Assembly: GCA_004764695.1 (NCBI GenBank)
Contig: SMSO01000037.1
Span: 2,270,747 to 2,334,746, forward strand
Length of the DNA: 64,000 bases
Direction: 5' to 3'
Source of the DNA: Schizochytrium sp. TIO01
Taxonomy: Eukaryota; Protista; Bigyra: Labyrinthulomycetes
Part shown: positions 43,138 to 45,406 of the stretch, in pieces
Layout: every line of letters begins with the position of its first letter
Position numbering within the stretch: position 1 is the first letter of the stretch
Position numbers and translations under genes: made by a program
Notes under the pieces: model-generated
The model's input: only the letters and a program-made list of their open reading frames with translations
Databases searched by the model: none
Told to the model about the DNA's origin: nothing

Positions 43138-43240
43138 CTTAGATGTTAAACTACAAAATTTGCAAAACTTGCATTTCATAGAAGGAGCTAAGACTCCATC
43201 ACGGACTAGTTAGACTAACCCGCGACTCAATGAAATGATT
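43138..43240 (-). ncRNA. Candidate Fanzor omegaRNA scaffold
   Basis: Lies directly downstream of the Fanzor stop. On the minus strand an outer stem CAUUUCA/UGAAAUG encloses a 12-bp hairpin (UCGCGGGUUAGU-CUA-ACUAGUCCGUGA) and a GGAGU-CUUA-GCUCC hairpin. The UCUUAG of the latter can pair with CUAAGA at the element end (pseudoknot). Confidence 0.6.
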
Positions 43241-43244
43241 TTTT

Positions 43245-45101
43245 TTAAATCATGTCCTTGGATAGGTAGCGTAAAAGGATGCCTCTTGCGGCATGGACAT
43301 CACGGTCTGCTACATGGTTGCACTTGAGATTAGGGCATTGGAAAACCTTGGATGCCCCGAGTTTATGGTGGAGGGTACCGCACTCATTGCATGTTTTTGA
43401 AGTGTAGCTCTCTTGGCAAAGAACAAGCTTGCACCACGGGAACATCTCAGCCTTATGAATGAGAGCCTGGCGGAACCCAAAATGGGACCAACGACACATC
43501 ATTCGAACAGACTTCTTGGATATCCGTCGCTCCATCCTCCTGCTCATCTTAGAGGTTTCGAATTTAGGCAAGAGAATAACACGATAGTTTTCACAAAGCC
43601 AAAGCGCGAGCTTGCGGTGAATCTCAGTGATCTTGTTCTTGATCTTGAGTTGGGCGCGATAGAAGGCGCGCTTCAAGGGGGTGTTGAAATCGTATGCAGT
43701 TTTCTTTTTATTTTCTTGAGCTTTATCAATCCTGCTTTGGATCTTATCAACGCGGCGACAGAGATAGAATATGGTTCTAAAATCTTTCCCTGTGCCCCAT
43801 TCAATGGCGCGGCCATCAGCATCATACATCGTCTGAAACGAGCGAACACCTGGATCTAGAGCAATGACACTGTGGTGCGCCTTGGGTGCCTGGTCCATTG
43901 GACGCTTTTCTTCTTCTCGTAAGAAGCAGAAGTACACATGCCCAAGGCGATTCATTTGCACACGCATGGCGTTCTTAATCTGACTGGGGAACTTTTCTTT
44001 GTGCGTACGAAACTCTTTTAGAAAGCTGGTGGTCTTTGATTTCTCCGTATTCCAGATACGTGCGTTCACTTCGAAAATCTGTGATTCATCACGCTTGGTC
44101 CGAAACTTATAAAAAGATTGCTCATGAACTTTCTTTTGTACAGCGAGTTCTTCGTTTTTGGCTCGTCCAGAGTTAAGAGCCTTGAAGAAATCCAGAATCC
44201 CGGAATCACGGATAACCTGTGGGACCTCGAGAACCCATTCAGGAGCATCATGCCTTTCTTTAGATCGAACGGCTTTCTTTTCTCCATAGAGGGCACCATA
44301 CGTTTGGGGATTCCCATCTTCATCTACTAAAACCTGCTTCGTCTTGGAATCCTTTTTGATGCACGCTTCTTGATGCAATTTGATGGCTTCTTTCTCGCCC
44401 TTCGCCACGTCTCGGTGAAACGCAACGCCAGTATTGTAGGCTCTTCTAGTGACACCAAACCATTTAAGCAACTGTGTACGCTGATCTTTAGTAGGGTATA
44501 CCCTGACCTTTTTGGCACGGACAAGGTCATATTCTTTCTTGATGGTCTTGCGCGCCTTCGTGCGAGCTCGCTTCTTCCTCGCTGCGTCGTCGCCGTCTAT
44601 TTTGCGCTGCTCGTTTTCCGTGATGCGATGCCACAAAGACGGTGATGATTCCGAGGAGGTCTTTGGTGAAGGTGTCTGCGTCTCCGGCATGTGCATCTTG
44701 GCCGTGTACCACGACTTTGACATTTTTTCTTTCGAAAAGGTGTTCCAGGAGGTCGACTGCGATTCGCGCAAGTCGGTCGCGGTGCATGACCACAACTTGG
44801 CCGATTCCGCCGCGGTCACAGGCGTCCAGTAGGGAGCACAGGCCTTGGCGTTTGAAATTGACCCCGCTACCGATGTCTTTGTAGACGGCGGAAGCATCTG
44901 GGTAGGCGCGCTGGAGATCGCCAACCTGGCGTTCGAGGTCCTCCTTTTGCTTGGCCGAGGACACTCTGGCGTAGATAACGGTACATCCAGAGCTGCGTTG
45001 CTCGCGGCCGGTGGAACCGCAATCAAAGATGCGCTCAACATCGTCGCAGGCGTAGATGCGCTTGCCTCCGGGGAAGCGCGCGCAGCGCACGCGTCCGCCA
45101 T
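43245..45101 (-). CDS. tnpB: Fanzor2 (eukaryotic TnpB) RNA-guided endonuclease; first in-frame ATG at 45101 (frame open from GTG 45185)
   Basis: HTH region KKVRVYPTKDQ...WFGVTRRAYN. RuvC-I VIALDPGVRSF. Rearranged RuvC-II (ILLPKFET plus alternative Glu in CQESYTSK). Zinc finger CNEC...CPNLKC. RuvC-III DRDVHAARGI. Basic NLS-like RKKRARTKARKTIKK. Confidence 0.92.
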   Translation of the reverse strand: MADACAARASPEASASTPATMLSASLIAVPPAASNAALDVPLSTPECPRPSKRRTSNARLAISSAPTQMLPPSTKTSVAGSISNAKACAPYWTPVTAAESAKLWSCTATDLRESQSTSWNTFSKEKMSKSWYTAKMHMPETQTPSPKTSSESSPSLWHRITENEQRKIDGDDAARKKRARTKARKTIKKEYDLVRAKKVRVYPTKDQRTQLLKWFGVTRRAYNTGVAFHRDVAKGEKEAIKLHQEACIKKDSKTKQVLVDEDGNPQTYGALYGEKKAVRSKERHDAPEWVLEVPQVIRDSGILDFFKALNSGRAKNEELAVQKKVHEQSFYKFRTKRDESQIFEVNARIWNTEKSKTTSFLKEFRTHKEKFPSQIKNAMRVQMNRLGHVYFCFLREEEKRPMDQAPKAHHSVIALDPGVRSFQTMYDADGRAIEWGTGKDFRTIFYLCRRVDKIQSRIDKAQENKKKTAYDFNTPLKRAFYRAQLKIKNKITEIHRKLALWLCENYRVILLPKFETSKMSRRMERRISKKSVRMMCRWSHFGFRQALIHKAEMFPWCKLVLCQESYTSKTCNECGTLHHKLGASKVFQCPNLKCNHVADRDVHAARGILLRYLSKDMI

Positions 45102-45225
45102 CGGCCCAGCCCCGAAGGGCGCTTGCTGAGACCCCAAACTTCCGGTGAAAGAACTTTGCTGGTTTGTATTCGAGGTTTGCTCCACTTGCAGTGTTTGGAG
45201 CTTGGCGGTTCCTTGGCCTCCCCAT
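44527..45225 (-). CDS. tnpA: IS607-family TnpA serine recombinase (232 aa)
   Basis: N-terminal MerR-like HTH (GVSASALRGWADGG...GGKRIY), catalytic IYARVSS, and QKEDLERQ, DIGSG and RDRLAR motifs. Confidence 0.93.
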   Translation of the reverse strand: MGRPRNRQAPNTASGANLEYKPAKFFHRKFGVSASALRGWADGGRVRCARFPGGKRIYACDDVERIFDCGSTGREQRSSGCTVIYARVSSAKQKEDLERQVGDLQRAYPDASAVYKDIGSGVNFKRQGLCSLLDACDRGGIGQVVVMHRDRLARIAVDLLEHLFERKNVKVVVHGQDAHAGDADTFTKDLLGIITVFVASHHGKRAAQNRRRRRSEEEASSHEGAQDHQERI

Positions 45226-45406
45226 TTTCTTACCTAACCTCCACTTCTTATTAAAGATCTAACTAAGTATAATATATAATTAATATGAAACAAGCACATC
45301 GAAATATAAGTTATCGAAATTTTAACGGTTTTTGTCATACTGAAGTTCCCAGATTAAAGTTATGTGCAGTTTTTATATTGTACTCACTTCGTACCTCATC
45401 CATCAA

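What the first reader, a model, noticed from the sequence alone, without database searches (positions are those of the whole stretch)
43138..45262. Apparently intact IS607-Fanzor2 element in a thraustochytrid nuclear chromosome
Seen: both the serine recombinase and the Fanzor2 ORF are uninterrupted and intronless. All three RuvC acidic residues are present in the Fanzor-type rearranged layout, together with the zinc finger and an NLS-like basic patch. Established: Fanzor2 derives from IS607 TnpB and is frequent in giant viruses and their protist hosts. Inference: a recent, possibly active, RNA-guided nuclease transposon that may have arrived via a virus, and a candidate new compact editor.
Basis: partly seen in the sequence, partly recalled or inferred. 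Interest (0 to 1): 0.75.

Follow-up and report, generated by a model that had tools for sequence, protein, structure and literature searches.

The report
Multicopy Fanzor2 transposon in marine protist
A marine protist's nuclear genome carries many copies of a bacterial-type jumping gene, and this copy has unbroken genes for both its recombinase and an overlapping, predicted RNA-guided DNA-cutting enzyme (Fanzor2), so it is a new member of a known family and likely a usable model for how such elements move in eukaryotes.

Summary
The element is real: an IS607 serine recombinase (44527-45225) and a Fanzor2-type nuclease (43245-45101), both uninterrupted, with DPG, shifted-E and DRD catalytic residues and a C4 zinc finger. 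The best structural match is mimivirus Fanzor2 (Z 21.8). It is not contamination: four isolate runs hold the family at roughly 10-15 times flank depth, with internally deleted derivatives, and two bridge the tRNA-Lys flank into its right end. One run probably has the empty site (inferred). A common sister variant has a stop in the recombinase but an intact Fanzor. Corrections: the element probably spans 43136 to about 45340, not 45262. The basic patch aligns to the DNA-clasping thumb rather than the NLS. At about 600 aa it is not especially compact. No close viral relative was found, so viral delivery is unsupported. Added: Fanzor2's N-terminal domain is overprinted in the +1 frame of the recombinase across the clade, including cyanobacteria (0 stops against about 600 expected), and the omega-RNA pseudoknot co-varies. 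Activity is untested. Verdict: new member of the known IS607EU/Fanzor2 family.

The parts
43136..45341 (-). IS607EU-type element, about 2.2 kb. Right end 43136-43138; left end about 45340 (inferred)
   Evidence: contig starts and loose ends at 43136-43138; family depth past 45305; inverted repeats; terminal pattern in relatives
44527..45225 (-). tnpA, IS607 serine recombinase, 232 aa. N-terminal HTH; YARVSS motif with predicted catalytic S89 (role of the motif recalled); complete helix-E region
43245..45101 (-). Fanzor2 ORF, 618 aa from the first ATG (other possible starts 45041, 44897). Catalytic D416, E564, D601; zinc finger C571, C574, C589, C594
44527..45101 (-). Dual-coding overlap (575 nt): Fanzor2 N-terminal region read in the +1 frame of tnpA
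   Evidence: frame and stop depletion; model residues 20-550 align to ApmFz2 53-518
43136..43310 (-). Predicted omega-RNA scaffold: hairpins at 43201-43223 and 43184-43197; the loop at 43188-43193 can pair with terminal 43138-43142 (pseudoknot). 5' limit not determined
   Evidence: z -3.8 and -3.5; co-variation in relatives
43116..43135 (-). Predicted guide segment (host flank beyond the right end)
   Evidence: Inference from IS607 TnpB and Fanzor2 architecture
43155..43177 (+). Right subterminal imperfect inverted repeat, a likely TnpA binding region
   Evidence: I2, 23 nt, 78% complementary; IS607 end architecture in PMC6188088
45301..45323 (-). Left subterminal imperfect inverted repeat
   Evidence: I2
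42708..42780 (+). Host tRNA-Lys, right flank (context)
45407..45485 (+). Host tRNA-Leu, left flank (context)

Best explanation
This is a copy, with both genes unbroken, of a multicopy IS607-type transposon family in a protist nucleus, whose serine recombinase likely excises and reinserts the element at a two-base core and whose Fanzor2 is predicted to use an RNA from the right end to cut the emptied site so that repair copies the element back. Shown: two open ORFs with full catalytic motifs; overlap in the +1 frame; many near-identical copies and internally deleted derivatives in related isolates; a structured 3' RNA region. Inferred from bacterial IS607 and tested Fanzor2: TnpA binds the subterminal repeats and recombines at an AG core, with no target duplication. 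The omega-RNA reads about 20 nt into the flank. The TAM would be the three bases ending at the left-end AG (minus strand 45342-45340), so only empty sites are cut. Sister copies with a recombinase stop or internal deletions would be moved in trans by copies like this one, or kept by Fanzor-driven repair. The Fanzor ATG is the first ATG after the tnpA start, so leaky scanning or an internal transcript start would supply the protein (untested).
For: Family hits and motifs. Fold: ApmFz2 is the top hit, Foldseek E 1.5e-18 and VIA Z 21.8 over 436 residues, and the only top hit that covers the N-terminal domain. Copy number from single-contig depth against flank depth, approximate: X11 97-105x against 8-11x; X6 228-270x against 20-31x; X2 3195x against 198-233x; X1 5761x against 334-401x. 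Deletion joints inside the element, e.g. 43297-44858 and 43625-44852. Possible empty site: a 481-nt X11 contig follows the flank to 43134, then has 97 letters not shown laid. That length fits a jump to about 45340 ending about 29 nt into tRNA-Leu, where such a contig would stop (inference). Expression of the family: two transcriptome-derived proteins about 92% identical. RNA fold z -3.8 and -3.5. Loop-terminus complementarity in 16 of 30 loci with a defined hairpin (81 examined), against a permuted mean of 5.3 and maximum of 14. Selection on the overlap: 0 +1-frame stops against 381 expected over TnpA aa 100-219 in 48 loci, and 0 against 219 in 23 cyanobacterial loci; the +2 frame is not depleted.
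Against: No activity, omega-RNA or excision product was observed. The empty site and the left junction were not seen directly. Some X2 contigs leave the window sequence at 45250-45257, so a shorter or diverged left end exists in other subfamilies. None of the listed runs matches the stretch fully (best share 0.74), so the intact reading frames rest on the assembly. At least four substitutions in this copy are absent from all four laid runs. The near-invariant Asn after the DRD motif is Gly here and in the transcript copies (G539 in the 550-aa numbering; Asn in 97% of relatives), with other departures at S353 and S463. Both transcript proteins carry E57D, which in the laid variant coincides with TnpA K167*, so the expressed copies may lack a working recombinase. 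Several of the 16 pseudoknot matches are clearly chance ones, including the position it picked in the window; the window's true match comes.
Confidence: 0.72

Rival explanations
1. A recently extinct family: the element multiplied in the past, and this copy is open only because it is young; neither enzyme works now.
For: Many derivatives are deleted or diverged: of the contigs laid in X1 (flanks included), 125 of 472 are under 90% alike. The common variant has TnpA K167*. G539 replaces a near-invariant Asn. An earlier unreviewed scan note describes a dead copy in this genome.
Against: All catalytic and zinc residues are intact. Near-identical copies number about 10 or more. Family transcripts with complete ORFs exist. 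The likely presence/absence difference is between isolates whose flanks differ by only 1-4 letters in about 1.2 kb.
Confidence: 0.2
2. The element was delivered recently by a giant virus or mirusvirus and is a viral passenger rather than a resident family.
For: Related elements occur on viral contigs: 74 loci, one beside an NCLDV major capsid gene (L001). 2 of the 80 sequences in the supported clade (0.99) are from viral contigs. A. limacinum hosts mirusvirus-like elements.
Against: No viral sequence among the 32 nearest. The best viral identity in the RuvC end is 51% against 64% for unassigned relatives. There are no viral genes in the flanks. Diverged subfamilies point to long residence. The coverage of mirusviruses in the viral collection is unknown, so this is not excluded as the ultimate route.
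Confidence: 0.15
3. Assembly chimera or bacterial contamination.
For: No whole genome or source reads were available, and the left junction was not seen in any listed contig.
Against: The right junction is bridged in X1 (42752-43165) and X2 (42752-43164). The family is multicopy in four isolate runs from four studies. It is separate from the cyanobacterial clade.
Confidence: 0.03

Closest known systems
IS607EU / Fanzor2 elements (ACa-1/-2 of Acanthamoeba, ISvMimi, ISvNY2A, CRv-1; PMC3627910, PMC3673617, PMC13565253)
   Same: Serine-recombinase TnpA plus Fanzor2, right-end RNA, eukaryotic or giant-virus setting; full-length intact copies were already reported in Acanthamoeba.
   Different: Host group: no thraustochytrid example in the texts or supplements searched. 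About 10-15 near-identical copies with deleted derivatives and a likely empty site, whereas PMC3673617 found no evidence of IS607 transposition in eukaryotes. Inferred AG core instead of GG.
ApmFz2 / ApmFNuc, mimivirus Fanzor2 (PDB 9B0L; PMC11832414, PMC10530073)
   Same: Domain order, DPG/shifted-E/DRD triad, zinc finger, Fanzor2-specific N-terminal domain (Z 21.8, 436 residues aligned).
   Different: Only 17% identity in the structural alignment. About 100 aa longer. Predicted TAM not GGG. Shorter 3' non-coding region (about 110 nt against about 200 nt). Nuclear, not viral.
Cyanobacterial pro-Fanzor IS607 TnpB (10.1101/2023.08.09.552727; ISArma1-like)
   Same: Same active-site layout and the same deep +1 overlap with tnpA (65 of 68 genome loci with tnpA).
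   Different: About 30% identity; separate clade in the tree.
Bacterial IS607, IS1535 and ISC1926 (PMC6188088)
   Same: N-terminal HTH serine transposase, imperfect subterminal inverted repeats, overlapping ORFs.
   Different: Their TnpB has the canonical active site (per the passages read for ISXfa1); they use a GG core.

Membership tests
Fanzor2 | DPG motif in RuvC-I | tested here: met
   D416-P-G
Fanzor2 | Catalytic Glu six residues before the zinc finger | tested here: met
   E564 then six residues to C571; aligns to ApmFz2 E467
Fanzor2 | C4 zinc finger and RuvC-III RD | tested here: met
   Invariant in 33 sequences
Fanzor2 | N-terminal domain (RuvC-R and thumb) as in ApmFz2 | tested here: met
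   VIA alignment, model 20-550 to chain 53-518; predicted model, mean pLDDT 81.8
Fanzor2 | Encoded in a eukaryote or its virus | tested here: met
Fanzor2 | Groups with named Fanzor2 in a phylogeny | tested here: inconclusive
   Separate from the cyanobacterial clade, but no experimentally named Fanzor2 sequence could be placed in the tree (one search found no mimivirus locus)
Fanzor2 | Right-end omega-RNA with pseudoknot | tested here: inconclusive
   Predicted fold and co-variation support it; no RNA data
Fanzor2 | RNA-guided, TAM-dependent DNA cleavage | not testable with these tools
   Needs a biochemical assay
IS607 (IS607EU) | Serine recombinase with N-terminal HTH | tested here: met
   (NF033518 above cut-off)
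IS607 (IS607EU) | Imperfect subterminal inverted repeats | tested here: met
   (I2); description
IS607 (IS607EU) | Same dinucleotide at both junctions, no target duplication | tested here: inconclusive
   AG is present at both inferred junctions; the empty site was not seen directly
IS607 (IS607EU) | Dispersed copies with different flanks | tested here: met
   Five X2 contigs leave the right end into dissimilar flanks (agreement 0.59); long contigs in X2 and X11 start at 43136
Fanzor2* (captured by TIR/TSD transposons) | No serine recombinase; terminal inverted repeats and target duplication | tested here: not met
   The recombinase is present and intact

The most novel reading that the evidence does not exclude
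An IS607-Fanzor2 family is transposing and homing today in the nucleus of a culturable protist: a few recombinase-intact copies like this one drive a majority that has lost the recombinase but kept Fanzor. The Fanzor2-specific N-terminal domain, including its NLS region, arose by overprinting on the recombinase gene already in cyanobacteria, not as a later eukaryotic acquisition.
Probability: 0.3. Interest if true: 0.72.

Novelty: new member of a known kind. Interest (0 to 1): 0.5.

Why it matters
The natural role of Fanzor2 in a eukaryotic nucleus is untested, and a 2013 survey found no sign that IS607 moves in eukaryotes (PMC3673617). A family with intact, recombinase-dead and deleted copies, and a likely empty allele in a close isolate, makes excision and homing directly testable in a culturable, genetically tractable host (tractability per abstracts). 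The clade-wide overlap explains where the Fanzor2 N-terminal domain comes from. It also warns that cyanobacterial database entries of 350-380 aa are likely truncated gene calls. As an editor it is one more Fanzor2 orthologue, with a possibly different TAM.

Tried and rejected
No whole genome is held, so copies and empty sites could not be extracted from the assembly. There is no second copy in the window. tRNA targeting: 0 of 60 metagenome loci scanned (of 80 fetched) carry a tRNA (many are short), so the tRNA neighbourhood is not treated as a targeting rule. Viral relatives: none with the single protein, none with a right-end pattern, no mimivirus locus. A programmed TnpA-Fanzor frameshift fusion was considered and is not needed: most relatives have in-frame ATGs 75-115 codons before the first conserved motif, but it is not excluded. 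Earlier scan notes by sequence and by words gave nothing. Literature: no thraustochytrid Fanzor or IS607 in the listings, or in supplement searches by genus name (one scanned file unreadable, and tables may list accessions only). Repbase, ISfinder and bioRxiv supplements could not be searched and may already hold this family. No statement on overprinting was found; overlap of IS607 ORFs in general is known. A closer look at run contigs over the left junction was not obtained, so that junction and the empty site remain inferred.

Full report
Observation. The minus strand holds two uninterrupted ORFs. TnpA (44527-45225, 232 aa) passes the NCBIfam IS607 transposase cut-off and has an N-terminal HTH. 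The nuclease ORF (43245-45101, 618 aa) has DPG, a Glu six residues before a C4 zinc finger, and DRD, the signature described for Fanzors and pro-Fanzors. Its best PDB sequence hit is mimivirus Fanzor2 (E 4e-19 alone, 4e-47 as a profile). An AlphaFold model (mean pLDDT 81.8) matches the same structure best. The basic patch aligns to the ApmFz2 thumb. A second basic patch near residue 50 of the long ORF lies where ApmFz2 has its NLS (inference).

Host and context. The window has eukaryotic 18S, 5.8S and 28S genes, U2, three tRNAs and a 385-bp tandem array upstream of 18S. This layout matches the subtelomeres described for Aurantiochytrium limacinum (passages). The genus is therefore inferred from layout, and no call named it. 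The element lies between tRNA-Lys and tRNA-Leu and is more GC-rich (46-61% in the ORFs) than its flanks (37%).

Copies. Twenty of 24 listed runs hold part of the stretch, none fully (best 0.74). Four were laid. Single contigs inside the element are about 10-15 times deeper than flank contigs; depth is only a rough copy proxy. Joints show internally deleted derivatives that keep both ends, and diverged subfamilies exist. X1 and X2 bridge the right junction. X11 follows the flank to 43134 and then has 97 letters not shown laid, a length that fits an empty site joined at about 45340. X6 departs at 43100 with 38 such letters, which is unexplained. Among 13 listed variants scored, 44727 T>A is TnpA K167* but Fanzor E57D. 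It is carried by the only laid contig in X6 and X11 and by a 2952x contig in X1; X2 has no cover there. The stop would remove helix E, whose deletion impairs end pairing in IS1535 TnpA (passages). So many sister copies are probably non-autonomous, while this copy is complete. Two transcriptome proteins about 92% identical, both with E57D, show that the family is transcribed.

Ends and RNA. Contig starts and loose ends put the right end at 43136-43138. In relatives the element ends with a five-base segment complementary to an upstream hairpin loop, followed by a two-base NG. The window has this pattern, ending at 43136. A test that defined the hairpin without looking at the terminus found own-locus complementarity in 16 of 30 loci (81 examined), against 5.3 permuted (maximum 14 in 1000); some matches are chance. 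The 3' region folds better than shuffles. This agrees with the pseudoknot reported for IS607 TnpB and Fanzor2. For the left end, family depth extends to at least 45305. The partner of the right subterminal repeat lies at 45301-45323, and symmetry plus the X11 length point to about 45340. Some diverged contigs leave at 45250-45257. This end is inferred.

Overlap. The Fanzor ORF overlaps tnpA by 575 nt in the +1 frame. Among viral and metagenome loci with both genes, 80 of 82 (window included) have the +1 frame; among genome loci, 65 of 68 with tnpA (12 of 80 had none). In 48 non-redundant tnpA genes (from 71 selected for score and overlap), +1-frame stops over aa 100-219 were 0 against 381 expected under synonymous resampling, and +2-frame stops 295 against 351. 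Over aa 20-99 they were 37 against 131, which points to a start in the first half of tnpA. Without an overlap requirement, 23 cyanobacterial genes (from 47) gave 0 against 219. The overlapping residues align to the ordered N-terminal domain of ApmFz2, which PMC11832414 says is absent from other TnpB structures. Thus the domain is overprinted on the recombinase and predates the move to eukaryotes. This is a property of the clade, not of this copy, and it was not checked at the mimivirus locus.

Origin. In a FastTree of 142 sequences (from 178; short, gappy and redundant rows dropped; midpoint root), the protein sits in an 80-member clade (support 0.99) of mostly unassigned short contigs, apart from the cyanobacterial clade. 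Two of the 80 are viral contigs; none of the nearest 32 is. Two of those 32 carry bacterial MAG labels but are 2-kb contigs holding little beyond the element, probably misbinned (inference). A short C-terminal tree of 333 rows brings three viral contigs in at the 36-member level (support 0.86). Viral delivery is neither shown nor excluded.

Mechanism. Most likely, TnpA recombines at a two-base core to excise and insert. Fanzor2, with an RNA running into the right flank, cuts emptied sites so that repair restores the element. Defective copies ride along. The enzymatic steps are inferred from bacterial IS607 and tested Fanzor2; none was observed here.

Papers. 10.1101/2023.08.09.552727: parts 1, 3, 4, 5 of 7. 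PMC11832414: part 1 of 5. PMC6188088: Introduction and passages. PMC3627910, PMC3673617, PMC13565253 and 10.1101/2023.06.15.545109: passages. PMC10530073, PMC10432273, PMC10711439: passages plus supplement searches for genus names (no hits). Repbase and bioRxiv supplements were not available and may bear on novelty.

Verdict. A genuine, complete IS607EU/Fanzor2 copy of a multicopy nuclear family in a host group not found in the literature searched. It is a new member of a known kind. Its value lies in testability and in the overprinting observation. Interest 0.5.

Noticed in passing
window 48259-55040: The 385-bp array has the same period and position as 'LORE-TEARS group 0', which was published as lacking GenBank similarity (identity with it is inferred). 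All 17 full units contain an 84-nt exon with AG/GT splice sites that encodes a 28-residue leucine-rich repeat (Pfam LRR_6 E 0.001-0.005, below cut-off), with no stops. Four codons (2, 3, 5, 28) are hypervariable (nucleotide diversity 0.45, against 0.026 at other codons and 0.06-0.15 in introns; the four were picked after inspection). It looks like a subtelomeric tandem-exon LRR receptor under diversifying selection; not found in print. It may be more surprising than the finding itself.
   Followed up: partly
window 46100-47000: A second repeated sequence (about 3-10 times flank depth in four runs, diverged, with indels) next to tRNA-Gln; a short Cys-rich remnant on the minus strand; unidentified.
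   Followed up: partly
window 43100-43137, run X6: The X6 contig leaves the flank at 43100 with 38 unlaid letters; possibly a deletion larger than the element.
   Followed up: no
window 47688-48248: A 140-copy GCTT microsatellite directly before the 385-bp array.
   Followed up: no
window 59391-64000: 18S-5.8S-28S rRNA cluster with rising GC skew; no 5S gene reached the Rfam threshold in the window.
   Followed up: no
P0015; L155, L156: Close relatives are labelled as a dinoflagellate protein and as bacterial MAG contigs of about 2 kb; these labels may reflect contamination or misbinning.
   Followed up: no
L001:1897-5473: A related IS607-Fanzor2 element sits directly after an NCLDV major capsid gene.
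   Followed up: partly
L157-L234 (cyanobacteria): Database pro-Fanzor entries of 350-380 aa probably miss the overprinted N-terminal domain, which is open and conserved in the DNA.
   Followed up: partly
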